Below are positions 1,236 through 9,864 of a DNA stretch of 10,129 bases, piece by piece; position 1 is the first letter of the stretch; each line of letters begins with the position of its first letter. The stretch spans positions 1-10,129 of the forward strand of contig CAIUDS010000675.1 of NCBI GenBank assembly GCA_903897985.1. The letters run 5' to 3'. This DNA is from an uncultured delta proteobacterium (GTDB taxonomy: Bacteria; RBG-13-61-14; DRUE01). The notes below the pieces were generated by a model, which was given only the letters and a program-made list of their open reading frames with translations, made no database searches and was not told the DNA's origin. The position numbers and the translations under genes were made by a program.

Positions 1236-1248
1236 TGCCGTCAGCAAG

Positions 1249-3672
1249 CTACCAGGCGATCTTTACCTGAAGCGCATCCCGGCTATCCGGAATCTTGAAT
1301 GACACCCGACCGTCGGCAAAGTCGAAAGCAAGATTCTGTTTTTCCGCCCCCTTGCCCAGCTCAATCGCCTTGGGCTTTTGGTCGGTGAAGACCACGAAAT
1401 CAAGATCGCGCGTGCTGGATTGCATCTTGCCTTCCGAGGAAGCTTTGGTAATCGTCAGCGAGGCAGTCCCCGACTGCTGGCAAAACCGGTTGCTCCGGTA
1501 TTCGCCGTTCAAATATGCATACCCGTTTCCCGCATCCTCGTAAAGGTCGAAGCAGGTTTTCGTGTCGCCGGGATAGAACTCTATGGACAGGGGCGCCCAC
1601 GGGCGCTCGCCCGTGTAATTCATCACCGGCGCCAGCGGAATGATCGCTCCGGCTCTCACAAACATCGGGATGGTGTCGAGCGCAACCGCGGTCACGACCT
1701 CTTTTGCGCCGTCGGTCCGGTTGGCGGTTTCGAAATCATACCACTGGCCTGCGGGCAGATAGACACTTCGTGTCCCCCTTTTCGCCTCCATCATCGGGGC
1801 AACCAGAAGCCAGTCTCCGATCATGAACTCGTCCGTGATCTGGTAGGTTTTTTCATCCGCGGGAAATTCCAAGAGCAAAGCCCGGAAGATGGGCCGGCCG
1901 GTCTCGGAGGTTTCCTTGAAATAATTGTAATAATAGGGCAGGAGCCGGTAGCGGAGTTGGATGGCTTTGCGCGATGCGTCTAGAACAGCATTGCCGTAGG
2001 AGAACGGGTCCTGACTGGGAGTGCCCTGGCTGGTATGGGTCCGGCTGAACGGATAGAACGATCCCTGTTCGATCCAGCGCGCATATAGCTCCGGCGACGG
2101 CGCGCCGCCGAACCCGCCGATGTCCGCGCCGACCATGGGCATGCCCGAGATGCCCATACTCAGGAGCATGGATGACGCGAGCCGCAAGTGGTCCCAATTG
2201 GCTGTATTATCTCCAGTCCAGACACAGGCGTATTTCTGGATGCCGGCATAACCGCCCCGGCTGATCACGAACGGCCGCTCATCGGGCCGGAGCCGCTTGA
2301 GCCCTTCAAAACTCGCCTGGCTCATTAGCGAGCCGTAGGCATTGTGGACCAGGCTATGCTCAACCTCGCCGCTCGGGCCGTGGCGCATGGGCAGGAACTC
2401 CACCTTGCCATGGCTCTTGCTCCAACCCGCGGGCTCGTTCATGTCGTCCCACACCCCGGCGATGCCGATGTCGGTCAGGAATTTCTGCAAGCCGCCCCAC
2501 CACTCCCTCACATTGGCCTGATAAAAATCCGGGTAATAGACCGCGCCCGGCCAGACATTGGCGGTGAAATATCCGCCGCGCGAATCATGCACGAAATAGT
2601 TTCTTTCCCGGGACTGGTCAAAGACCAGGTAGCCCGGCTCGATCTTGACGCCCGGGTCAACAATCGTGATCACCTTGAACCCGTCCTTTGCCAAATCCGC
2701 GACCATTTTCTTGGGGTCCGGGAACCGCTTCGGGTTGAAGGTGAAAACCTTGTAGGCGTCCATGTAGTGAATATCCAGGAAGATCACATCGCACGGGACC
2801 CGCAGGGTCCTGAATTTATTTGCCAGCCGGCGCACAATAGACTCATTCTTATAACTCCACCGGCACTGCTGATAGCCCAGCGCCCAGAGCGGCGGGAGCG
2901 GGTATCGGCCGACCAGCGAGGAGTAGCGCTCGATCACCTGCATGGGCGCGGGACCGGCGATGAGGTAATAGTTCAATTCGCCGCCATCGGCCCGGTAGAA
3001 GAACTTGCCCGGCTCGGTCGCGCCGACATCGAAAGCCGCGCGATAGGAATTGTCCAGGAAAATTCCGTAGGCCAGCCCCTTGCGCAGCGAGAGGTAATAC
3101 GGATGCGACTGATAGATCGGGTCGTCATTCGGCGCGTAACCATGGTCGGTGTTCCACATCGTCATCTTCCAGCCGCGCTTGTCGAACGGCCCGGTCTTCT
3201 CGCCGAACCCATAAAAATGCTCGCCCGTTTGGATCGTTCGGGTCACCCCCGGTTTGCCGCCCTCGAAAAAGATGCCGCCCCCCTCCGGCTCGGAGAAAAG
3301 CAGGTTCCCGTCCCGGTCATAAGCCTCGAAGACACCAGTGTCCTTATTTATCCTGAGCCGGAGCGCAACCGTGCTCAGGGTGAGAAAACTCTTGGCATCC
3401 TCATATGCAATCGGCCCCGGCTGAGGCGCGCTGTCCGCCAACGCGAACGAAAAATCCGGCGCGAATTCTTTCTGATTCGTCGCGCGCACCCTTATGATCT
3501 CCGGCGTGAGCGCGCTCACCTTGACCATGCCCCCGGAAAAATTTATGACCACTCCGTCCGGCTTCGGCTCGAATCCGGTCACCTTCCCCAAATTGACCCT
3601 GCCGGTCTGCCCAAAAGCCGAGCCCGCGGCCAGCAACCCCAAAACCAAAATCGAGAAAATTTTCCTGCTCAT
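1249..3672 (-). CDS. GH31-family glycoside hydrolase (alpha-glucosidase-like), secreted; full length, about 807 aa from the proposed start
   Basis: The 887-aa ORF contains both GH31 signature regions: GVWDDMNEPA (catalytic-nucleophile WxDMNE motif) and MVGADIGGFGG (acid/base region). The likely true start is the internal Met at 3670-3672, giving MSRKIFSILVLGLLAAGSAFGQ, a Sec signal peptide. The 80 residues upstream in the listed ORF (MPTPSFQNL...) are Arg/Gly-rich read-through of the promoter region. A GGAGGG Shine-Dalgarno lies upstream of 3672. Confidence 0.85.
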   Translation of the reverse strand: MSRKIFSILVLGLLAAGSAFGQTGRVNLGKVTGFEPKPDGVVINFSGGMVKVSALTPEIIRVRATNQKEFAPDFSFALADSAPQPGPIAYEDAKSFLTLSTVALRLRINKDTGVFEAYDRDGNLLFSEPEGGGIFFEGGKPGVTRTIQTGEHFYGFGEKTGPFDKRGWKMTMWNTDHGYAPNDDPIYQSHPYYLSLRKGLAYGIFLDNSYRAAFDVGATEPGKFFYRADGGELNYYLIAGPAPMQVIERYSSLVGRYPLPPLWALGYQQCRWSYKNESIVRRLANKFRTLRVPCDVIFLDIHYMDAYKVFTFNPKRFPDPKKMVADLAKDGFKVITIVDPGVKIEPGYLVFDQSRERNYFVHDSRGGYFTANVWPGAVYYPDFYQANVREWWGGLQKFLTDIGIAGVWDDMNEPAGWSKSHGKVEFLPMRHGPSGEVEHSLVHNAYGSLMSQASFEGLKRLRPDERPFVISRGGYAGIQKYACVWTGDNTANWDHLRLASSMLLSMGISGMPMVGADIGGFGGAPSPELYARWIEQGSFYPFSRTHTSQGTPSQDPFSYGNAVLDASRKAIQLRYRLLPYYYNYFKETSETGRPIFRALLLEFPADEKTYQITDEFMIGDWLLVAPMMEAKRGTRSVYLPAGQWYDFETANRTDGAKEVVTAVALDTIPMFVRAGAIIPLAPVMNYTGERPWAPLSIEFYPGDTKTCFDLYEDAGNGYAYLNGEYRSNRFCQQSGTASLTITKASSEGKMQSSTRDLDFVVFTDQKPKAIELGKGAEKQNLAFDFADGRVSFKIPDSRDALQVKIAW

Positions 3673-3699
3673 CTTTCCCCATCCCTCCATTTTGCGGTT

Positions 3700-3745
3700 A
3701 CCTAAAATATATATCCCACCCGGCTTTTTATAGCAATCGCGCAAC
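3700..3745 (-). promoter_or_regulatory. Candidate sigma70-type promoter for the GH31-trmJ operon (read on the minus strand: TTGCTA-N17-TATATA; an alternative TTGCGC -35 lies 3 nt after the upstream motif)
   Basis: The minus strand reads ...AAATTTTTTGGTTGCGCGATTGCTATAAAAAGCCGGGTGGGATATATATTTTAGG..., placing the -10 about 25 nt upstream of the GGAGGG Shine-Dalgarno and ATG at 3672. Hexamers were assigned by eye. Confidence 0.3.
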
Positions 3746-3746
3746 C

Positions 3747-3775
3747 AAAAAATTTCTTGCCCACCCCCGGTTTTT
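3747..3775 (-). promoter_or_regulatory. Copy A of a recurrent promoter-upstream motif (minus-strand reading AAAAACCGGGGGTGGGCAAGAAATTTTTT), directly 5' of a TTGCGC/TTGGTT -35-like hexamer
   Basis: Near-identical to copy B (3895-3922) in inverted orientation, and to copy C (9958-9984). Seen directly in the sequence. Confidence 0.5.
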
Positions 3776-3922
3776 CGCGCGCGCCCGCGCGCTTTGGAGT
3801 GCGGCGTCCGCGACGCCGCTTTAAAAGCGGTGCCGCCGGCACCGCAGTCCAAAACGCTTTCAGCGCAAATTGGTTGAATTCTATTGAGATTTTGAAAACT
3901 GGGGGTGGGCAAGGAAATTTTT
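3747..3922. repeat. Imperfect inverted repeat of about 28 bp (AAAAATTTC-TTGCCCACCCCCGGTTTT / AAAACTGGGGGTGGGCAAGGAAATTTTT) enclosing three tandem GC-rich palindromic hairpins
   Basis: Left arm at 3747-3775, right arm at 3895-3922, with 1 indel and 1 mismatch. Internal palindromes: CGCGCGCGCCCGCGCGC (3776-3792), GCGGCGTCCGCGACGCCGC (3801-3819), GCGGTGCCGCCGGCACCGC (3827-3845). Each is followed by TTT. Confidence 0.6.
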
Positions 3923-3955
3923 CACTTGACAAATTATTAGGGAAAGGGCTAATTT
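3895..3955 (+). promoter_or_regulatory. Copy B of the upstream motif (AAAACTGGGGGTGGGCAAGGAAATTTTT), followed after 3 nt by a sigma70-like promoter (TTGACA at 3926-3931, N17-18, TAATTT at about 3950-3955) for the flotillin-like gene
   Basis: The -35 hexamer is a perfect consensus. The predicted leader is about 50 nt, ending in the strong Shine-Dalgarno AAGGAGGGGG (4001-4010) and ATG at 4015. Confidence 0.45.
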
Positions 3956-4014
3956 ATGGGGGTTGGAAACGGGTCAAGAATGAAAAATTACGATGTAATC
4001 AAGGAGGGGGTAAG

Positions 4015-5970
4015 ATGGTGCCAGGATTGATTGTATTGGCCATGGTCATTGCCGCGATTTTGATTCTGCCTTCATTCCGGAATATCGGCCCGACCGAGAT
4101 TGGTCTGGTCACCAAACGGTTTTCCGTAAAGAAACTGGCGGAAGACAACCTGGTGGCATTCGAGGGGGAGGCCGGGTATCAGGCGGACCTGTTGATGCCG
4201 GGCTGGCGCTGGAAACTCTGGATGGTGTTCAGGATCGAGAAATTCCCCTGGGTGCAGGTTCCGGCCGGAGAGATCGGCGTGGTCATCGCCCAGGTGGGAC
4301 ATCCACTCCCGATCGGGGCCAAGTCCGCGGTCTTCAAAAAGGAGTTCGCCAATTTCAGCGACCTGCGCCGGTTTGTGGAACTGGGCGGTCAAAAGGGCGT
4401 GCAGCGGCCCGTGCTTTCGCCCGGAACCCTGGTGCCGATACATCCGGTCGGGTTCCTGATCCTGACCAAGCACAAGATTTACGGCGTCCCGGTTTCTCCG
4501 CAATTCAAGGCCATTGGCCGCCAACTCGCCCCGCAGGACTTCGGCCTGTCCGCGGCGCAACTGGAAGTGGTCCGGATCGAGCCGGCGCCGATGGAGGAAA
4601 AATCTTCTGCCCTGGATATGATCGGCGTGGTTACGACCTTTGAGGGCGATCCTTTGCCCGCCGGAGACATCGCCAACCGGCTGGGCGGGTTTGAGGATGT
4701 GGAAAAATTGGAACGGGCCAACGAGAGCGACATCAAGCTGATCGAGACCATCCTGGGCAGCAAGAACAACCTCCATAATAACTACCAGGACTACCAGGCC
4801 TTCCTCGACCATGGCGGCAGGATCGGCCTTCAGCACGATCCCCTGCTTTACGGCGCTTACAATTTAAACCCGTTCCTGGTCGCGGTCGAGAGGGTGGCCA
4901 TGCTCAAGGTCGAGCAAGGCGAGGTGGCGGTGATCAAGTCCTATGTGGGCCTCCCAACCGAGGATGTCTCCGGCGCCGAGTTCAAGTTCGGCAGCCTGGT
5001 CAAGCCCGGGCATCGCGGCATCTGGAGAGAGCCGCTCCGGACCGGCAAATTCCCGATCAACCCCAGGTGCTACGAGGCCGAAATCGTTCCCACCAGCATC
5101 CTCACTCTGAACTGGGCCGAGGCCACCTCCATGGCCCACAAGCTCGACGCGAACCTCAAATCCATTGACGCCAAATCCCGCGAGGGCTTTGTCTTCAAGA
5201 TAGACCTCCAGGTCCAGATCCATGTCCCGGACACCAAGGCCCCCAAGGTGATCTCGATCGTGGGCACCATGGCCAACCTGGTCAACGAGGTTTTGCAGGC
5301 CGCGGTCGGGAACCATTTCCGCGACAAATTGCAGAGCATGCCCGCGGTCATGTTCATCGAGACCCGGCAGGAAGTGCAGCAACAGGCTTTTGCGCATATC
5401 AAGGAGCATCTGGCGCAGTATGAGGTCGAGACCAAGGGCGTTTATATTCAGGATGTGGTCCTGCCCCAGGGCCTGGTCAATGTGCTGACCCAGCGCGAAA
5501 TCGCCAACCAGGAGATCAATACCTTCAAAAAACAGCAGCAGGCCCAGGAGCAGCGGATCGAAATGGAAAAATCCAAGGGTACCGCGGACATGCAGGCCGA
5601 ACTCGCCCGGTCCAAAGTCGGGATTGACATCAAAACCAACAACGCGTCCGCGCGCAAGTCCGAGGCCGACGGCGAGGCCACCTATATCCGCGAGACCGGC
5701 ATCGCCAAGGGCGCCGAGGTCGAGGCGGTCGGAATGGCCCGGGCCAAGGGCTTTGACGCCCAAGTTAAAGCCATGGGCCGCGAGACCACCGCGCTTGTCA
5801 ATGTCATCACCGTGCTTGCGGAAAAAGGGACCAAGTTCGTCCCCGAAATCCTGGTCATGGGCGGCTCCGGCGCCGCCGGCGGCAGCGGTAGCCTCGAGGG
5901 CCTCGCCGCCACCCTCATGAAATTCATCCGCGCCAAGACTGATCAGGACGCGAAAGGGTTGACCAAATAG
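4015..5970 (+). CDS. Flotillin-like SPFH/band-7 membrane protein (YqiK/FloT-like), 652 aa: N-terminal TM helix, SPFH region, long coiled coil, C-terminal EA/AKG-rich repeats and Gly-rich tail
   Basis: The true start is the Met at 4015, preceded by the Shine-Dalgarno AAGGAGGGGG. The listed ORF start at 3757 lies in the intergenic region. The N-terminus MVPGLIVLAMVIAAILILPSF is a TM helix. The C-terminal part reads QQQAQEQRIEMEKSKG...ATYIRETGIAKGAEVEAVGMARAKGFDAQVKAMG...KFVPEILVMGGSGAAGG. This parallels the FloT/YqiK tail as recalled (AEAEVIRLKGLAEAEA...ITVVDTGGSG). The SPFH portion is longer than in FloT. Confidence 0.6.
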   Translation: MVPGLIVLAMVIAAILILPSFRNIGPTEIGLVTKRFSVKKLAEDNLVAFEGEAGYQADLLMPGWRWKLWMVFRIEKFPWVQVPAGEIGVVIAQVGHPLPIGAKSAVFKKEFANFSDLRRFVELGGQKGVQRPVLSPGTLVPIHPVGFLILTKHKIYGVPVSPQFKAIGRQLAPQDFGLSAAQLEVVRIEPAPMEEKSSALDMIGVVTTFEGDPLPAGDIANRLGGFEDVEKLERANESDIKLIETILGSKNNLHNNYQDYQAFLDHGGRIGLQHDPLLYGAYNLNPFLVAVERVAMLKVEQGEVAVIKSYVGLPTEDVSGAEFKFGSLVKPGHRGIWREPLRTGKFPINPRCYEAEIVPTSILTLNWAEATSMAHKLDANLKSIDAKSREGFVFKIDLQVQIHVPDTKAPKVISIVGTMANLVNEVLQAAVGNHFRDKLQSMPAVMFIETRQEVQQQAFAHIKEHLAQYEVETKGVYIQDVVLPQGLVNVLTQREIANQEINTFKKQQQAQEQRIEMEKSKGTADMQAELARSKVGIDIKTNNASARKSEADGEATYIRETGIAKGAEVEAVGMARAKGFDAQVKAMGRETTALVNVITVLAEKGTKFVPEILVMGGSGAAGGSGSLEGLAATLMKFIRAKTDQDAKGLTK

Positions 5971-6048
5971 ACACGATAAACAGGAGCGGATTGGGCGCAC
6001 TTCGTTTCCAGCTTTTCCGAAGAATGCACGGGAATTGGTGCGGAAAAA

Positions 6049-6825
6049 ATGTATTATGACGAACTCATCATACGGTGCGGGCGGTTCTTGCATAAGAACT
6101 GGTTGATCAATTTGGCGGTCGCTTGCGGGCCGATCACGATTTTTATCGTGTTTACATGGGCGACAACTCGATTGCTAAATTTCGAGTCCAGCGGACTTAC
6201 CCATTTAATATTCATTATAGGTTACCTCGCCATTACCGCGCTGATGTTCTATGCGCATTGGGCCGCGGTTTCGTTTTTCTATCACAGCGAATTTGAGCGG
6301 AAGAACATGTCTCTTAAAGCTGTTTTGATCAATGCGCTCAGGCCATTTTATCTTTTCGTCATCATCCTTACGCTTGGCTTAGCCGGTGAGGCCGTTTCAC
6401 AAAGAATTCTGACCAACAATCTAGCGGCAAAAATATCCTTGATGGGGCTCTTGTCGGTGATAATGCTTGTGCTTGAATTGGCGTGCATCATGTTGATCTT
6501 GCGGGATGAAGATGTGGCCGAAGTCTTGCGGCGCACGGTCGGGCTGGTATCTCGAAATATTTCCGCGCTGCTCAGGCTGTATCTGAATATTTTGTTCTGG
6601 TCATTTCCGCTCATATTGATTCTGGGTATCGCAGCTTGGGGGAGCATCCACTATTCCGCTTCCATCCATGTCTTTCTCATAAACAAAGGAATTGACATTC
6701 AAAAAATGTTTTGGGTGCGGAACGGGCTGGTTGTGATCGTCTATACCTTCTTTACGCTTTTATATCTCTGTTTCCTTTATGTGGAAACGGAATTCCTGAA
6801 GAGGCTGGATGAGCTTAAAGGGTAA
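6049..6825 (+). CDS. Hypothetical polytopic membrane protein (about 6 predicted TM helices), no recognisable family. First gene of the AT-rich three-gene cassette.
   Basis: The 258-aa ORF has six hydrophobic helical stretches (approximate residues 17-37, 50-78, 100-116, 129-151, 174-200, 228-245). GC content is about 40-45% against about 60% in the flanks. Its stop is 2 nt before the MNT ATG. No strong Shine-Dalgarno is evident upstream. Confidence 0.55.
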   Translation: MYYDELIIRCGRFLHKNWLINLAVACGPITIFIVFTWATTRLLNFESSGLTHLIFIIGYLAITALMFYAHWAAVSFFYHSEFERKNMSLKAVLINALRPFYLFVIILTLGLAGEAVSQRILTNNLAAKISLMGLLSVIMLVLELACIMLILRDEDVAEVLRRTVGLVSRNISALLRLYLNILFWSFPLILILGIAAWGSIHYSASIHVFLINKGIDIQKMFWVRNGLVVIVYTFFTLLYLCFLYVETEFLKRLDELKG

Positions 6826-6827
6826 GG

Positions 6828-7163
6828 ATGAATTTTCAGTCCGGGGTTGCCTTTTGGCTCAATTTGATCGAGAATAAAGGTATGGACACGACGGTTCAAT
6901 CCGAAATCGAAAATGCGGTGCGCATTCTCAAAGAATACGGCGCCCGGGAGGTCTATCTGTTCGGCTCTCACGCCCACGGCAAGGCCCGGCCAAACTCCGA
7001 CCTGGATCTGGCGGTCACCGGGATTCCTCCCGAGAAATTCATAAGGGCGTATGGGAAGGTGATGTGGAAACTCGACCGGCCGGTTCACTTGATTGACTTG
7101 GACGAGGATTCCGACTTTAGTAAATTCATCAAGACCAACGGAGAGCTTAGAAGTGTCGGTTGA
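6828..7163 (+). CDS. Minimal nucleotidyltransferase (MNT, Pol-beta superfamily); putative antitoxin/modifier of a HEPN-MNT pair
   Basis: Carries the NTase-fold motif YLFGSHAHGKARPNSDLDLAV (GS-x10-D-x-D) and is about 110 aa, typical of MntA/HI0073-type proteins. A Shine-Dalgarno AAGGGTAAGG sits before the ATG at 6828. An alternative start is MDTTVQ at 6882. Confidence 0.8.
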   Translation: MNFQSGVAFWLNLIENKGMDTTVQSEIENAVRILKEYGAREVYLFGSHAHGKARPNSDLDLAVTGIPPEKFIRAYGKVMWKLDRPVHLIDLDEDSDFSKFIKTNGELRSVG

Positions 7164-7602
7164 TCTCGGGAAGCAGATAGCGTTTGAGCTTGGGCAACTC
7201 GGGAAATTGGTCGAGGTCAATTCCTCTCTCCAACGCAAAATCGGCGGCCGGGAGCCGGATGAGTTTGATGTCTTTGCTTTTGCCGCGATTCTGCATTCTT
7301 TTTACAACGGGATCGAGAATATTTTTTCGCGGATTGCCAACGAACTTGACGGCGGAACCCCCGATGGATCCAACTGGCATAGAGACTTGCTGTCCTCGAT
7401 GTCTAAGCCTGGGAGTCGTCGAGGAAGCGTAATCACTCAAGAACTGGCTGAAGAGTTAAACGACTACCTGACCTTTCGACATCTTTTTCGCAGCATCTAT
7501 TCTTTTGAACTGAAGTGGGAAAGAATGAGAAAATTGGTTATGGACATGGAGAGGGTATTTAGAGAATTTGAAAAACAATTAGCGAACTTTAAAGCAGACT
7601 AA
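7153..7602 (+). CDS. HEPN-domain / HI0074-family nucleotidyltransferase-substrate-binding protein (putative toxin partner of the MNT). The catalytic His of the Rx4-6H motif is apparently replaced: RHLFRSIY.
   Basis: A GTG start at 7153 is preceded by a GGAGAG Shine-Dalgarno. It overlaps the MNT stop by 11 nt, a TA-like arrangement. The helical, about 149-aa product reads VSVDLGKQIAFELGQLGKL...FAFAAILHSFYNGIENIFSRIANEL...YLTFRHLFRSIYSFE. This is collinear with HI0074 as recalled (ALFQLEQGL...IQRFEYTLDLSWKTLRRVL...FHEARNKTAHTYD). The listed ORF start at 7093 is a TTG deep inside the MNT gene. Confidence 0.55.
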   Translation: MSVDLGKQIAFELGQLGKLVEVNSSLQRKIGGREPDEFDVFAFAAILHSFYNGIENIFSRIANELDGGTPDGSNWHRDLLSSMSKPGSRRGSVITQELAEELNDYLTFRHLFRSIYSFELKWERMRKLVMDMERVFREFEKQLANFKAD

Positions 7603-7608
7603 TCCGCT

Positions 7609-7830
7609 TTACTTGTCATTCTTCCCCAGCGCCATATACACCCCTCCCCCAATCAGGGCGGCGCCGATCAGGAACCTTGGGGTCATGGGATCGTGGAAGA
7701 CCGGGCTGGCAAGGGGGATGCCCACCAGGGGCTGGATCATGATGGAGATGCCGACCCGGTGGGAGGCGCGCCGGCTGAGCGCCTGGTAGTAAATCCAATA
7801 TCCGATGGAGGTCGCGATGCTGTGCCGCTT
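7609..7830 (-). pseudogene. 3' fragment of an EamA/DMT-superfamily transporter gene (about 73 C-terminal codons). The 5' part of the gene is missing.
   Basis: The minus-strand frame reads KKRHSIATSIGYWIYYQALSRRASHRVGISIMIQPLVGIPLASPVFHDPMTPRFLIGAALIGGGVYMALGKNDK*. This is the typical C-terminal EamA-domain pattern (Q.L...........P..........E.....IGa.LI..Gvy). A stop (TAA) lies immediately upstream in frame at 7831-7833. Only about 140 nt separate it from the next gene, so a full transporter of about 300 aa cannot fit. Confidence 0.5.
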
Positions 7831-7973: not shown

Positions 7974-9116
7974 CTAGGCTTCATGCTCATGCTCGGCGGG
8001 AAAGATGGGCAGGATTTTGGCGGCGACGATGAAAATAATGACGCCGAGGGTAAGGATCATGAAGGTGATGGAGATTTCCTGCCAGGTCGGGAAATAGCGG
8101 GCATGGCTCTGCAGGAGGAACCCGACGATGGTGAAATTAAGTCGGTTCATGAACAACCCGAGCACGGCCAGGACCGCGGCGATACGGAACCCGATGCGGG
8201 AGTTGCGGACCGCGGGGATGGCGAGGAGGACGATGGGGAGGATGACGCCCGGAATGGTTTCCAGGCCGAGCCAGAAGGCGGCTTGGGGATCATTCGCCAG
8301 CAGGGTCCATTTGCCCAAGCGGGTGAAATCGGCGCAGAGGATAATGAGATATGCGGCGAGGGTCCCAAGCAGGAGTTTGGCCAGGGCTTTGACCAGTTCG
8401 GGCGAGAACCTCCAGTGAACGAATTTTTCGGCCATGAAGAGTTCCATAACGAGGAACCCGAGTCCGCCGGGGAGTGCGGAAGCCAGGAAGATGAGGGGCA
8501 TCCAAGAGGAATACCAGATGGGGGACATTTTTTCGCTGGCGATGAGGAAAATGGTCCCGATGGATGACTGGTGCAGGGTTGAGAGGACGGCGCCGAGGAG
8601 GGCAAGCAGGACCACCAAACCTTTGAGCCGGTCGGCGATTTTTTTCCAGCCGACACCCTCGGTAAAGGGGATGGCCATTTCCATACCGAGCACGGCCACA
8701 TAAGTCCCGATGCACCAGGCGGTCTCCAACATGGCGGAATGGATGTTCCAGTAGATGAGCGGGTGCCAGAAATGGAGCGGGAGTCCGAGGTCGTAGATGA
8801 GTTCGACCGCGACCAGGGAGTATCCGACAAAGGCGGTGAGCACCGCGGCGCGGACGATGGAATGGAAGCGCTCGTAGTGGAACAGATAGACCACCGCGGC
8901 GAGGATGAACCCGCCGGCGCTGAGTCCGACCCGGGTCAGGGTGAACCAGATCCAGAGTCCCCAAGGCACGGAGTCGGAAAGATGGGTGGTGGCGCCCAGG
9001 CCCCTTGAGAAGCGGAGCCAAGTGGCATAAAGCCCGACCGCGAAGATGGCCAGGACCGCGAGTCCGATCGCCGCGGTCGAGATCCGAGTGAGCGGCTTGC
9101 TGTTATTATTTGCCAT
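7974..9116 (-). CDS. NrfD/PsrC-family polytopic membrane subunit (quinone-interacting membrane anchor of NrfCD/PsrBC/DsrOP/HybAB-type modules)
   Basis: The 380-aa protein has multiple TM helices. Its N-terminal family signature is LSDSVPWGLWIWFTLTRVGLSAGGF (compare PsrC/NrfD: DSVPWGL...F.GLSAGA). Its start overlaps the upstream FeS gene's stop by 11 nt. Confidence 0.8.
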   Translation of the reverse strand: MANNNSKPLTRISTAAIGLAVLAIFAVGLYATWLRFSRGLGATTHLSDSVPWGLWIWFTLTRVGLSAGGFILAAVVYLFHYERFHSIVRAAVLTAFVGYSLVAVELIYDLGLPLHFWHPLIYWNIHSAMLETAWCIGTYVAVLGMEMAIPFTEGVGWKKIADRLKGLVVLLALLGAVLSTLHQSSIGTIFLIASEKMSPIWYSSWMPLIFLASALPGGLGFLVMELFMAEKFVHWRFSPELVKALAKLLLGTLAAYLIILCADFTRLGKWTLLANDPQAAFWLGLETIPGVILPIVLLAIPAVRNSRIGFRIAAVLAVLGLFMNRLNFTIVGFLLQSHARYFPTWQEISITFMILTLGVIIFIVAAKILPIFPAEHEHEA

Positions 9117-9864
9117 CGAATTCCTTCTTTCTGAGCAGGGCCTCGAGCGCGGCGACTTCGTTGCGTCTCTTGGAAAGCCACCAGATCCCGCAGAGCATGG
9201 TCCCCACGCCGAAGCCCACGAAGGGGACCTGGTTATGGGCGGCCGCGGTGAGGTCGGGCAGGGGCGTTTTGATGGTCGGATAGATCAGGGCTTTCTTCAC
9301 GATCACCGGGCTGGTGATGATCAGGATGGACGAACCACCGCCTTCGGTCTCGCCGAAGACCTTGGGGAAATACCATTGGGGTTCGGCCTCGAGCCGGGCA
9401 TGGGCCTCCTTCAGCAGTTCCTCGCGCTCGCCGAAGACCGTGGCCTCCGCGGGACAGGCGTCGGCGCAGGCCGTGGCTTCTCCTTGCTTCTGCTTCTCGA
9501 CGCAGAAGTCGCACTTGCGCACCTGCGGCCGCGTGGAATTCCACTGGTAGCGCGGAATCCGGTAGGGGCAGGCCACAAAACAATAGCGGCAGCCAATGCA
9601 CTTGTTCGCGTCATAGACCACCGGGCCTTCCGCAGTCTTCTTGAGCGCGCCCACCGGGCACGACGAGGCGCAGGCCGGCTTGAGACAATGGCGGCAGAAA
9701 TCCCGAACCTTATAGCCGTCCACCCGCTTCACGACCGTGAAATTGTCCGCGTCCAGATCGGTGGGGTTCAATTTGCCTGACAGATGGTGGGCTTCCCGAC
9801 ACGCCTCGCTGCAATTGCCGCAACCGATGCAAAGCCTGGAATCAAACAGAATGCCTTTACTCAT
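9106..9864 (-). CDS. 4x[4Fe-4S] ferredoxin-type iron-sulfur subunit (PsrB/NrfC/DmsB/HybA-like) with a C-terminal TM anchor and no N-terminal Tat signal
   Basis: Four Cys clusters: CIGCGNCSEAC; CRHCLKPACASSCP; CIGCRYCFVACP; CDFCVEKQ...CADACP. The N-terminus MSKGILFDSRLCIGCGNC is DmsB/PsrB-like. The C-terminal hydrophobic helix is VPFVGFGVGTMLCGIWWLS, followed by basic residues. The Shine-Dalgarno AAGGATAGGAG precedes the ATG. Confidence 0.85.
   Translation of the reverse strand: MSKGILFDSRLCIGCGNCSEACREAHHLSGKLNPTDLDADNFTVVKRVDGYKVRDFCRHCLKPACASSCPVGALKKTAEGPVVYDANKCIGCRYCFVACPYRIPRYQWNSTRPQVRKCDFCVEKQKQGEATACADACPAEATVFGEREELLKEAHARLEAEPQWYFPKVFGETEGGGSSILIITSPVIVKKALIYPTIKTPLPDLTAAAHNQVPFVGFGVGTMLCGIWWLSKRRNEVAALEALLRKKEFDGK

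What the first reader, a model, noticed from the sequence alone, without database searches (positions are those of the whole stretch)
3747..3922. Inverted-repeat-bounded cluster of three GC-rich palindromes between divergent promoters. Candidate structured RNA, MITE/REP-like insertion, or looping/insulator element.
Two motif copies form an about 28-bp imperfect inverted repeat 120 bp apart. Between them lie three consecutive near-perfect GC palindromes (17, 19 and 19 nt), each followed by TTT.

If transcribed, this would fold into a long closing stem with a three-hairpin multiloop, ending in a U-run. No terminator is needed here, because both flanking genes start rather than end in this region.

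Three explanations remain open:
- a small mobile inverted-repeat element (MITE/REP-like) inserted between the promoters;
- a pair of inverted regulator-binding sites allowing DNA looping, with GC hairpins or cruciforms as insulators between divergent promoters;
- a small structured RNA.

I could not find a convincing target-site duplication. The extended AAATTTC/GAAATTT flanks are themselves part of the inverted repeat.
Basis: seen in the sequence. Interest (0 to 1): 0.5.

Follow-up and report, generated by a model that had tools for sequence, protein, structure and literature searches.

The report
Small transposon inserted beside a promoter
The feature is most likely a roughly 157-bp non-coding mobile element with inverted-repeat ends and a core of REP-type GC hairpins, inserted between two divergent promoters, and its close relatives in a sister genome nearly all sit exactly 12 bp upstream of a promoter -35 box.

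Summary
A 28-nt inverted repeat (89% complementary, 120 nt apart) encloses GC-rich hairpins in the 342-bp spacer between a divergent GH31 glycosidase gene and an SPFH/Band-7 gene.

- The closest syntenic relative lacks about 145-160 bp here. Removing 3756-3922 restores a collinear alignment.
- The core (3790-3866) is two inverted REP units, flanked by two small hairpins.
- The relative's metagenome carries this same core (85% identical) inside a 196-bp element present at 12 distinct sites, with conserved terminal inverted repeats and 9-bp target-site duplications.
- The window copy has different termini. No second copy of them was found, so its mobility is inferred by analogy.

The REP unit (TTTGGAGT, GC hairpin, TTTGG) occurs in MAGs of many phyla, mostly as inverted doublets. 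It brackets a RAYT-like tyrosine-transposase gene in 7 of 7 loci examined.

Unexpectedly, 9 of 13 element copies, including the window's, have a sigma-70-type promoter whose -35 box starts exactly 12 nt from one element end (P about 1e-14).

The structured-RNA, terminator and regulator-looping readings are not supported.

The parts
3747..3755 (.). Left copy of the putative 9-bp target-site duplication (AAAAAATTT)
   Evidence: It matches the right copy GAAATTTTT at 6 of 9 positions. This is weak on its own in A/T-only sequence. Sister elements have 9-bp duplications that are perfect in 5 of 12 copies.
3756..3774 (+). Left terminal inverted repeat CTTGCCCACCCCCGGTTTT
   Evidence: It is part of the 28-nt, 89% complementary inverted repeat (shuffle test). 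It occupies the same position as the conserved end CTGACCGTCTAACAC plus T-run in the 196-bp sister MITE.
3776..3792 (.). Hairpin A, a (CG)n palindrome CGCGCGCGCCCGCGCGC
   Evidence: Read from the sequence and predicted as a hairpin in the fold. The sister MITE has a different hairpin, GCGTCCCGCGAGCGGGACGC, at the same position.
3794..3821 (+). REP unit 1 (TTGGAGT, GCGGCGTC-CGC-GACGCCGC, TT). The stem is 3801-3808 paired with 3812-3819.
   Evidence: It matches the REP pattern and the nhmmer profile at E = 1.9e-8. The family is multi-copy in many phyla. The free stem positions covary.
3825..3852 (-). REP unit 2, inverted relative to unit 1. The stem is 3827-3835 paired with 3837-3845.
   Evidence: Supported by the pattern match, nhmmer and the inverted-repeat scan. 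The '+-' doublet is the dominant arrangement in the family, 62 clusters against 3 '-+'.
3855..3865 (.). Hairpin D (CGCT-TTC-AGCG)
   Evidence: Read from the sequence. It is homologous to GCGCC-TTC-GGCGC in the sister MITE. The core 3790-3866 matches the MITE reference at 84.6% over 78 nt, E = 8e-18.
3867..3894 (.). A/T-rich right subterminal segment
   Evidence: It is only weakly similar to the sister MITE subterminal segment. The alignment score is 8.5 against a shuffle mean of 5.0, sd 1.7, and 77 of 2000 shuffles reach it.
3895..3913 (-). Right terminal inverted repeat AAAACTGGGGGTGGGCAAG
   Evidence: Shown by the inverted-repeat scan. The terminal 12 nt after AAAACTG have the same length as in the sister MITE but a different sequence.
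3914..3922 (.). Right copy of the putative target-site duplication (GAAATTTTT)
   Evidence: Compared with the left copy. Removing 3756-3922 gives a collinear alignment with the relative's empty site CCCAAAAAAGAATTGTTTTTCCTTGACA.
3926..3955 (+). Putative promoter of the SPFH/Band_7 gene: -35 TTGACA at 3926-3931 and -10 TAATTT at 3950-3955. The -35 box starts exactly 12 nt from the element end.
   Evidence: The block TTGACA...TAATTTAT is conserved in the relative L003. The spacing was measured. No transcription data were available.
3708..3736 (-). Putative promoter of the GH31 gene: -35 TTGCTA at 3731-3736 and -10 TATATA at 3708-3713, both on the minus strand. It lies 19 nt outside the left element end.
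   Evidence: Read from the sequence. The corresponding block TTGCCA-N17-TATATT is present in L003. This is an inference with no transcription data.
1249..3672 (-). GH31 glycoside hydrolase gene with a signal peptide
   Evidence: Translated. Pfam finds PF01055, PF13802, PF21365 and PF17137.
4015..5970 (+). SPFH/Band_7 (flotillin/YqiK-like) gene
   Evidence: Translated. Pfam finds PF01145. The closest homologue is 88% identical and lies on the 129-kb contig L003.

Best explanation
Window 3756-3913 is most likely a non-autonomous transposable element (MITE). It has roughly 19-nt terminal inverted repeats, no coding capacity, and a core made of two inverted REP-type palindromes plus two accessory hairpins.

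**Insertion (inferred).** It inserted into the A/T-rich tract between two divergent promoters and duplicated about 9 bp of target, now degenerate (AAAAAATTT / GAAATTTTT).

**Mobilisation (inferred).** By analogy with the sister element, which has conserved terminal repeats and 9-bp duplications, a transposase that makes 9-bp staggered cuts moved it. That points to a DDE-type enzyme. No such gene was identified.

**Core (shown for the family, not for this genome).** The core belongs to a REP family spread over many phyla, whose units bracket a RAYT-like HUH tyrosine-transposase gene.

**Position (shown as a statistical association).** Element ends lie exactly 12 bp upstream of sigma-70-type -35 hexamers. 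Whether this reflects target selection is inferred.

**Effect on the GH31 and SPFH genes.** No effect is shown. The element lies upstream of both putative -35 boxes, so it is probably not part of either transcript.
For: **It is an insertion.** The closest relative has the same GH31 / SPFH synteny but a 209-bp spacer instead of 342 bp, with no arms and no hairpins. Deleting 3756-3922 restores collinearity with that spacer.

**Sister element.**
- The core 3790-3866 is 85% identical to a segment at a different locus of the relative.
- A metagenome scan found that segment on 13 contigs of one sample, representing 12 distinct sites.
- All of these are 194-197-bp elements, 91-98% identical to one another.
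- They share the ends CTGACCGTCTAACAC...GTTAGACGGTCAG and carry 9-bp target duplications, perfect in 5 of 12 and 7-8 of 9 in most of the rest.

**The window's inverted repeat is far beyond chance**.

**Same geometry as the sister copies.** The window's -35 box TTGACA starts 12 nt from the element end.

**REP family.**
- 62 clusters are '+-' doublets against 3 '-+'.
- The free stem positions are 96% paired, against 63-69% in shuffles.
- The RAYT-like gene is bracketed by inverted REP units in 4 of 4 REP-anchored loci and 3 of 3 RAYT-anchored loci.
- That protein matches NCBIfam NF047646, REP-associated tyrosine transposase, at E = 7e-20.

**Promoter association.** 9 of 13 copies score at least 8 of 12 against TTGACA-N16-18-TATAAT at offset 12. 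The background rate is 0.014, giving a binomial P of about 1e-14. The peak is confined to offset 12.
Against: - Only one copy with the window-type termini (CTTGCCCACCCCC) is known. None was found in the 136 loci then held or in viral contigs. The rest of the window's genome was not available.
- The window's target duplication matches at only 6 of 9 positions, in A/T-only sequence, so it is not significant by itself.
- The termini of the window element and the sister MITE are not recognisably homologous: about 5 of the terminal 12 positions, or 6 of 15, match by eye. The similarity of the subterminal segments is weak (p about 0.04).
- No autonomous element or transposase with matching ends was found.
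- At 75-88% protein identity between the two genomes, the spacer alignment cannot fix the insertion boundaries to the base. A deletion in the relative cannot be formally excluded.
Confidence: 0.72

Rival explanations
1. It is a pure REPIN/BIME. The REP doublet was placed here by the RAYT-type tyrosine transposase. The outer 28-nt arms arose locally, for example by template switching at the hairpin that copied one flank in inverted orientation, and are not transposon ends.
For: - The REP doublet is a module of its own. A doublet without MITE arms exists in the relative's sample (L131 3462-3560).
- Doublets are common in many phyla.
- Part of the right arm (AAGGAAATTTTTCAC) resembles the ancestral promoter-upstream sequence of the relative.
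- A few REP doublets in other phyla also have 16-21-nt flanking inverted repeats.
Against: - In the sister lineage the equivalent arms are identical at 12 dispersed sites and are flanked by 9-bp duplications. That is transposition, not local palindrome growth.
- HUH/Y1 enzymes are not known to make target duplications (established knowledge, also summarised in PMC6006769).
- Flanking inverted repeats are not a general property of REP doublets. Only 10 of 144 clusters exceed the 99th percentile of the control, and three of the examined high scorers are explained by further REP units.
Confidence: 0.12
2. The arms are copies of a short G-rich repeat of the kind that flanks TIR-associated tyrosine transposase genes (TIRtron/TIRYT, motif GGGGWSAS). 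Here they form an inverted dimer around a REP doublet.
For: - The window arm GGGGGTGGGC resembles GGGGWSAS at 7 of 8 positions.
- The relative carries a Y1_Tnp gene with perfect 23-bp repeats GGGGTCAGGGCTTTACATTTTAC.
- Solo copies of TTGGGGTCAGGGCTTTA occur elsewhere in the same sample.
- Such repeat families are described in PMC3733652.
Against: - The orientation is opposite. The G-run is innermost in the window and outermost in the TIRtron.
- The sequences next to the G-run differ.
- There is no match to the TIRtron repeat in the window, even with up to 3 mismatches.
- The resemblance rests on a short G-rich word.
Confidence: 0.06
3. The two arms are operator sites for a regulator of the divergent GH31 and SPFH genes, allowing DNA looping. 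The GC hairpins or cruciforms act as an insulator between the promoters.
For: - The element sits between divergent putative promoters.
- Partial copies of the arm motif lie near both -10 regions: 3704-3721 resembles 3749-3766 (78%), and 3957-3969 resembles 3900-3912 (85%).
- (CG)n and GC palindromes could extrude under the negative supercoiling expected between divergent promoters (inference).
Against: - The syntenic relative keeps both genes and both promoter blocks without the arms or hairpins.
- The equivalent arms of the sister element are transposon ends at 12 unrelated sites.
- The extra partial copies are short two-copy matches of the kind the repeat tool flags as often being chance.
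Confidence: 0.05
4. It is a small structured RNA or a transcription terminator.
For: - The fold is very stable (z about -8) on either strand.
- The stems covary across the REP family.
- REPs in other bacteria can act at the RNA level (PMC3733652 abstract).
Against: - There is no Rfam match at E up to 1 in this region.
- No terminator-like site is found; the hairpins have only 3-4 T.
- Both strands fold equally, as expected for palindromic DNA.
- The element lies upstream of both putative -35 boxes, and both neighbouring genes start here.
- Element copies occur in both orientations relative to the adjacent promoter.
Confidence: 0.03

Closest known systems
REP / BIME / REPIN elements with their RAYT (TnpA-REP) tyrosine transposases (E. 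coli, Pseudomonas; PMC3116915, PMC2817692, PMC6006769)
   Same: - The units are roughly 30-nt GC-rich imperfect palindromes with a conserved single-stranded 5' tag.
- Most are inverted doublets that can form a larger hairpin.
- They are multi-copy and lie outside genes.
- The stems covary.
- A single Y1/HUH gene is bracketed by inverted units, as in a REPtron.
- The associated protein (about 200 aa, motifs NHYH / WH / YVHQNA, Pro-rich N-terminus) resembles subclass 2.8 of Quentin et al. 2018. This comparison was made by eye from their table.
   Different: - The tag is TTTGGAGT, not GT[AG]G or CGTC.
- Near-identical units occur across many phyla instead of being specific to a species or genus.
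- A G-A mismatch next to the loop is the commonest state (63 of 138 units).
- In the window and its relative, the doublet is embedded in an element with terminal inverted repeats, which in the sister family carries 9-bp duplications.
- The location is upstream of promoters rather than downstream of genes.
Bacterial MITEs (Correia/NEMIS, ERIC, RUP, Nezha, MITEAba12; PMC3733652 background, PMC6382973, PMC10969869)
   Same: - The size is 157-197 bp.
- There are 15-20-nt terminal inverted repeats and no ORF.
- The sister family has target-site duplications.
- The location is intergenic.
- Presence/absence differs between relatives.
- The whole element can fold into a long hairpin.
   Different: - The core consists of RAYT-type REP palindromes.
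- No parent insertion sequence was identified.
- The position is strikingly fixed at 12 bp upstream of -35 hexamers. I did not find this described in the papers searched, but that search was limited.
TIRtron / TIRYT elements (Di Nocera et al. 2013, PMC3733652)
   Same: The relative carries a Y1_Tnp gene flanked by perfect 23-bp inverted repeats that start GGGGTCAG, which fits the published GGGGWSAS motif. The window's arms contain a similar G-rich word.
   Different: There is no gene between the window's arms, the orientation of the G-run is reversed, and the similarity is limited to about 8 nt.
IS4-family ends such as IS50/Tn5 and IS10/Tn10 (recalled from memory, not tested)
   Same: The sister MITE makes 9-bp target duplications, and its ends begin 5'-CTGAC, as do the Tn5 outside end (CTGACTCTTATACACAAGT) and IS10 (CTGATG...).
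   Different: No transposase gene was found. The window element begins CTTGCC. A position fixed relative to -35 boxes is not a known property of Tn5 or Tn10.

Membership tests
MITE (non-autonomous DNA transposon) | Terminal inverted repeats | tested here: met
   The arms are 28 nt and 89% complementary. The score is 21.5 against a shuffle maximum of 15.
MITE (non-autonomous DNA transposon) | Target-site duplication flanking the ends | tested here: inconclusive
   In the window, AAAAAATTT and GAAATTTTT match at 6 of 9 positions in A/T-only sequence. The sister element has 9-bp duplications that are perfect in 5 of 12 copies and 7-8 of 9 in most others.
MITE (non-autonomous DNA transposon) | Several copies at unrelated sites in one genome | not testable with these tools
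   Only 10 kb of the window's genome is available, and no other copy of its arms was found in the held loci or in viral contigs. The feature is met for the sister element, which occupies 12 distinct sites on contigs of one sample.
MITE (non-autonomous DNA transposon) | Presence/absence at an otherwise conserved locus | tested here: met
   The relative L003 has the same flanking genes and promoter blocks but a 209-bp spacer instead of 342 bp. The alignment is collinear after removing 3756-3922.
MITE (non-autonomous DNA transposon) | A cognate autonomous element with the same ends | tested here: not met
   BLAST of the MITE against all held loci found only MITE copies. The 19 viral-contig hits to the end sequence have no properly paired inverted partner. 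The search space was small, so this is a weak negative.
REP/REPIN-RAYT system | Short GC-rich imperfect palindrome with a conserved unpaired tag | tested here: met
   The unit consensus is T-TTGGA(G/C)T-GCGNNGNC-NNC-GNCNNCGC-TTT. The free stem positions covary: 96% paired against 63-69% in shuffles.
REP/REPIN-RAYT system | Canonical GT[AG]G (or CGTC) tag at the hairpin foot | tested here: not met
   The 5' tag is TTTGGAGT, or TTTGGACT on the other arm. The published definitions are in PMC3733652 and PMC6006769.
REP/REPIN-RAYT system | Inverted doublets | tested here: met
   62 clusters are '+-' doublets against 3 '-+', out of 157 clusters. The window's doublet is '+-'.
REP/REPIN-RAYT system | A Y1/HUH transposase gene bracketed by inverted REP units | tested here: met
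   Loci L078, L066, L050 and L107 and L156, L157 and L158 all show it, 7 of 7. The protein scores 71 bits against NF047646, below the curated cut-off of 80. This could not be tested in the window's own genome.
REP/REPIN-RAYT system | High copy number within a genome | tested here: inconclusive
Whole-genome counts were not obtainable.
Known structured RNA family (Rfam) | Match to a covariance model; strand-specific structure | tested here: not met
   There is no match in the region at E up to 1. Both strands fold equally well.
Intrinsic terminator | GC stem followed by a T-run of at least 5 in 8 | tested here: not met
   No terminator-like sites were found in 3500-4200. The hairpins are followed by only 3-4 T.

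The most novel reading that the evidence does not exclude
This element belongs to a family of MITEs that integrate at a fixed position, 12 bp upstream of the -35 hexamer of sigma-70-type promoters, with either end facing the promoter. That would imply promoter-directed target selection by a bacterial transposase. The signal could be promoter DNA or RNA polymerase/sigma bound to it, or a TTGACA-like mimic of the element's own CTGAC end. The family's cargo is a REP doublet of a RAYT-associated family shared by many phyla, so two transposition systems would be nested in one small element.
Probability: 0.45. Interest if true: 0.65.

Novelty: new variant of a known kind. Interest (0 to 1): 0.5.

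Why it matters
**For annotation.** The feature is a mobile-element scar, not a regulator site or an RNA gene. It also explains the spurious ORFs that run through this spacer.

**Wider points that may deserve follow-up.**
- One REP unit (TTTGGAGT-hairpin-TTTGG) and its RAYT-like gene are shared almost unchanged by Acidobacteriota, Planctomycetota, Verrucomicrobiota, Hydrogenedentota, Chlamydiota, Nitrospirota, Chloroflexota and others. Classical REPs are specific to a lineage.
- REP doublets can be carried inside an element with terminal inverted repeats and target duplications. This links two kinds of small repeat that are usually treated separately.
- The copies sit exactly 12 bp upstream of -35 boxes. 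I know of no bacterial transposon with that specificity. If it reflects targeting, it would be a natural tool for marking or perturbing promoters, and a possible source of regulatory variation.

Tried and rejected
**Searches that found nothing useful**
- The Rfam scan of the whole window found nothing in the region.
- The promoter/terminator consensus scan found nothing in 3500-4200. Its criteria also miss the conserved TTGACA...TAATTT block.
- Searches for other copies of the window-type arm found none in the held loci or in viral contigs.
- The search for an autonomous partner of the sister MITE in viral contigs gave 19 hits, none with a properly paired inverted end, so I take them as chance.
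- A literature search for the motif sequence returned only unrelated primer hits.

**Ideas I held and dropped**
- I first read the outer repeats of the window and of L003 as locus-specific, perhaps from palindrome growth. I dropped this for L003 once 12 sites with identical ends and 9-bp duplications appeared.
- I first thought the -35 box always faced the same element end. Inspection of the left flanks showed promoters at offset 12 on that side too.
- A general link between REP units and -35 spacing in other genomes was tested and not found.

**Weak or unavailable evidence**
- Homology of the right subterminal segment is weak (p about 0.04).
- The taxon of the window was not resolved.
- A third GH31 relative (P0243) has no DNA on file and a different gene context.
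- The two other contigs that carry the window's SPFH protein have no DNA on file.
Full report
**Observation.** The window region 3673-4014 is the 342-bp spacer between two divergent genes. One is a GH31 glycoside hydrolase (1249-3672, minus strand). The other is an SPFH/Band_7 protein (4015-5970, plus strand).

Its arms are 3747-3774 and 3895-3922, 28 nt, 89% complementary and 120 nt apart. It lies far beyond chance, scoring 21.5 against a mean of 8.8, sd 1.2 and maximum 15 in 1000 dinucleotide shuffles.

The three GC palindromes are at 3776-3792, 3801-3819 and 3827-3845. Two corrections apply.
- The third palindrome is not followed by TTT. It mirrors the second, and the two belong to a 34-nt inverted repeat, 3789-3822 with 3824-3857.
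- There is a fourth small hairpin at 3855-3865.

Both strands fold equally well, at about -102 kcal/mol and z about -8. That is what palindromic DNA gives. Rfam has no match here, and the terminator scan finds nothing.

**It is an insertion.** The SPFH protein has one close relative (88% identity) on a 129-kb metagenome contig, JGI sample 3300032118, held as L003.
- That contig has the same GH31 / SPFH arrangement, but its spacer is 209 bp.
- Both putative promoter blocks are conserved: TTGACA...TAATTTAT for SPFH, and TTGCYA-N17-TATAT for GH31.
- The arms and all the hairpins are missing.
- Removing window 3756-3922 gives a collinear alignment with the relative's sequence CCCAAAAAAGAATTGTTTTTCCTTGACA.

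At this divergence (GH31 is 75% identical) the boundaries cannot be fixed to the base.

**The core is a repeated module.** A BLAST of the element against the fetched loci found window 3790-3866 again, 85% identical, at a different place in L003 (21237-21314). The hairpin stems there carry compensatory changes.

A unit pattern derived from the four half-sites (TTGGASTGCGNNGNCNNCGNCNNCGCTT) was scanned against one genome per species.
- The hits are in MAGs labelled Acidobacteriota, Planctomycetota, Verrucomicrobiota, Hydrogenedentota, Chlamydiae, Nitrospirales, Anaerolineae, Armatimonadota and others.
- Several MAGs are hit on 4-7 contigs.

A profile search on these loci gave 157 clusters. Of these, 62 are '+-' doublets like the window's and only 3 are '-+'. 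At the stem positions that the pattern left free, 96% of units pair, against 63-69% in shuffles. A G-A mismatch next to the loop is the commonest state, in 63 of 138 units.

**The module is a REP of a RAYT-like system.** Among the REP-anchored loci, four carry a gene of about 200 aa within 150 nt of REP units, bracketed by units in inverted orientation. These are L078, L066, L050 and L107, from differently labelled taxa.
- The protein matches NCBIfam NF047646, REP-associated tyrosine transposase, at E = 7e-20 and 71 bits. That is below the curated cut-off of 80.
- It has more than 6000 homologues at E below 1e-10, the best of them about 70% identical.
- For the reverse test I took three homologues without regard to REPs (P0174, P0206, P0237). 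All three genes are bracketed by a '+' unit upstream and a '-' unit downstream.

That makes 7 of 7, the classical REPtron arrangement (PMC6006769).

The family still differs from described REPs. Its tag is TTTGGAGT rather than GT[AG]G or CGTC (PMC3733652). It is also shared across phyla. By its motifs (NHYH, WH, YVHQNA, Pro-rich N-terminus, about 200 aa) the protein looks most like subclass 2.8 of Quentin et al.. That comparison was made by eye.

**The outer arms are most likely transposon ends.** A metagenome scan for the tight doublet found 14 stretches. Thirteen are on different long contigs of the same sample as L003. They represent 12 distinct sites, because L123 and L130 share flanks.

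All are copies of one 194-197-bp element, 91-98% identical to one another. Its layout is:
- a conserved end, CTGACCGTCTAACAC followed by a T-run;
- hairpin A;
- REP(+);
- REP(-);
- hairpin D;
- an A/T-rich segment;
- the other conserved end, GTTAGACGGTCAG.

Each copy is flanked by a 9-bp direct duplication that differs from site to site, for example CGGACCTGC, CATAAATTG and AAGATCTCA. The duplication is perfect in 5 of 12 copies and matches at 7-8 of 9 in most others. This is a bona fide MITE.

The 9-bp duplication argues for a transposase that makes staggered cuts, which points to the DDE type. It argues against the Y1 enzyme. This step is inference, and no transposase with matching ends was found.

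The same sample also holds a REP doublet without these ends (L131). So the doublet and the ends are separable modules.

The window element has the same core and the same layout, but different termini (CTTGCCCACCCCCGG / CTGGGGGTGGGCAAG) and a shorter left side. By analogy:
- the element is 3756-3913;
- the flanks AAAAAATTT and GAAATTTTT are a degenerate 9-bp duplication (6 of 9);
- the flanks share the palindrome AAATTT, so they seem to extend the inverted repeat, as happens with AAGATCTCA in L124.

**Weak points.**
- No second copy with the window-type termini is known.
- The termini of the two elements are not recognisably homologous.
- The subterminal similarity is weak (p about 0.04).

**Unexpected position rule.** When the copies were aligned, a TTGACA-like hexamer appeared at a fixed distance from the element.
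- At least 5 of 6 matches to TTGACA start exactly 12 nt from the right end in 6 of 13 copies, with one more at 11 nt. The background rate is 0.0043 per position.
- Inspection of the other flank showed that most copies lacking this have TTGATT, TTGATA or TTTACT followed by TATAAT-like boxes at the same offset from the left end.
- Scoring full promoters (TTGACA-N16-18-TATAAT) at offset 12 on either flank, 9 of 13 copies reach at least 8 of 12. The background is 0.014, so the binomial P is about 1e-14.
- The mean score is 8.5 at offset 12 and 3.9-5.7 at every other offset from 0 to 29.
- Of the remaining four copies, L136 has TTGACA at 11 nt, L132 has TTGATT at 13 nt, L123 has CTGACA at 12 nt, and L134 has a -35-like box at 6 nt.

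The window copy follows the rule, with TTGACA at 3926 being 12 nt from 3913. REP units in other genomes show no such spacing, so the rule belongs to the element with the terminal repeats. A rough ORF survey suggests that many copies, like the window's, lie between divergently oriented ORFs or upstream of a gene start.

Selection alone would not give a single-base peak. I therefore infer target selection, but the signal is unknown. It could be promoter DNA or bound RNA polymerase, or a TTGACA-like mimic of the element's own CTGAC end. Only 12 sites from one population plus the window support the rule.

**How it most likely works.**
- *Shown.* There is an extra segment of about 157 bp with terminal inverted repeats and a REP-doublet core, absent from the syntenic relative. 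The same core sits in a multi-copy MITE with target duplications. The REP family is associated with a RAYT-like gene. Element ends lie 12 bp from -35-like boxes.
- *Inferred.* The window copy transposed here by means of its own ends. The mobilising enzyme was DDE-type. The AAATTT flanks are the target duplication. The element is not transcribed from either neighbouring promoter. Any effect on GH31 or SPFH expression is secondary.

**Rivals.** Four were considered: a pure REPIN with locally generated arms, TIRYT-type G-rich repeats, a regulator site or looping element, and a structured RNA or terminator. Together I give them about a quarter of the probability. Their evidence is set out in the rival entries.

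**Novelty.** The window feature is a MITE, which is a known kind of element. Three aspects are not in the papers I could search:
- a REP/RAYT family shared across phyla, with a non-canonical tag;
- a REP doublet as the core of an element with terminal repeats and target duplications;
- the fixed position 12 bp upstream of -35 boxes.

That literature search was limited. I rate the finding as a new variant of a known kind, of moderate interest.

Noticed in passing
L003 6329-7363 (compare window 1247-1249): In the relative, a 317-aa Y1_Tnp gene is inserted between the SpoU methylase and GH31 genes, which directly abut in the window. It hits PF01797, and NF047646 at 74 bits. It is flanked by perfect 23-bp inverted repeats GGGGTCAGGGCTTTACATTTTAC. 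The repeat fits the GGGGWSAS motif of the published TIRtron/TIRYT elements (PMC3733652).
   Followed up: partly
L127 12438-12448; L132 131-141, 8370-8380, 8497-8507: Solo copies of the TIRtron end motif (TTGGGGTCAGGGCTTTA) occur at other sites in the same metagenome sample. This looks like a second short repeat family in that genome.
   Followed up: partly
window 6828-7602 (low-GC stretch about 6000-7650): There is an MNT-type nucleotidyltransferase (6828-7163; PF18765, PF01909) and an overlapping HepT-like ORF (7093-7602; PF20797, E = 2e-33). Together they look like a MntA/HepT toxin-antitoxin pair. They lie in a stretch with GC 0.43-0.50, against about 0.6 elsewhere in the window. The relative L003 has different genes downstream of the SPFH gene.
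   Followed up: partly
L106 2165-2347; L119 5500-5677; L092 1442-1615: In MAGs of other taxa, REP doublets are also bracketed by 16-21-nt inverted repeats. These may be further MITEs with a REP core. With one copy each, that could not be tested.
   Followed up: no
L050 5634-5870 and L107 5049-5239, 5891-6046: Tandem arrays of 3-6 REP units lie directly next to the RAYT-like gene. In L107 the 3' TTTGG of one unit doubles as the 5' tag of the next.
   Followed up: no
window 3704-3721 and 3957-3969: Partial copies of the arm motif (CCCACCC / GGGGGTTGG) lie beside the putative -10 regions of both divergent promoters. They are 78% and 85% identical to the arms over 18 and 13 nt. They may be chance matches in G-rich sequence.
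   Followed up: no
window 3757-5970 and 1249-3912 (ORF list): The mechanical ORF list extends both flanking genes through the element, to TTG starts at 3757 and 3912. The ATG starts at 4015 and 3672, each with a Shine-Dalgarno sequence, are the plausible ones. Repeats of this kind are a likely source of spurious N-terminal extensions and hypothetical ORFs in automatic annotation.
   Followed up: partly
window 7974-9864: NrfD-like (7974-9116, minus strand) and 4Fe-4S dicluster (9106-9864, minus strand) genes suggest a membrane-bound oxidoreductase operon at the right end of the window.
   Followed up: no
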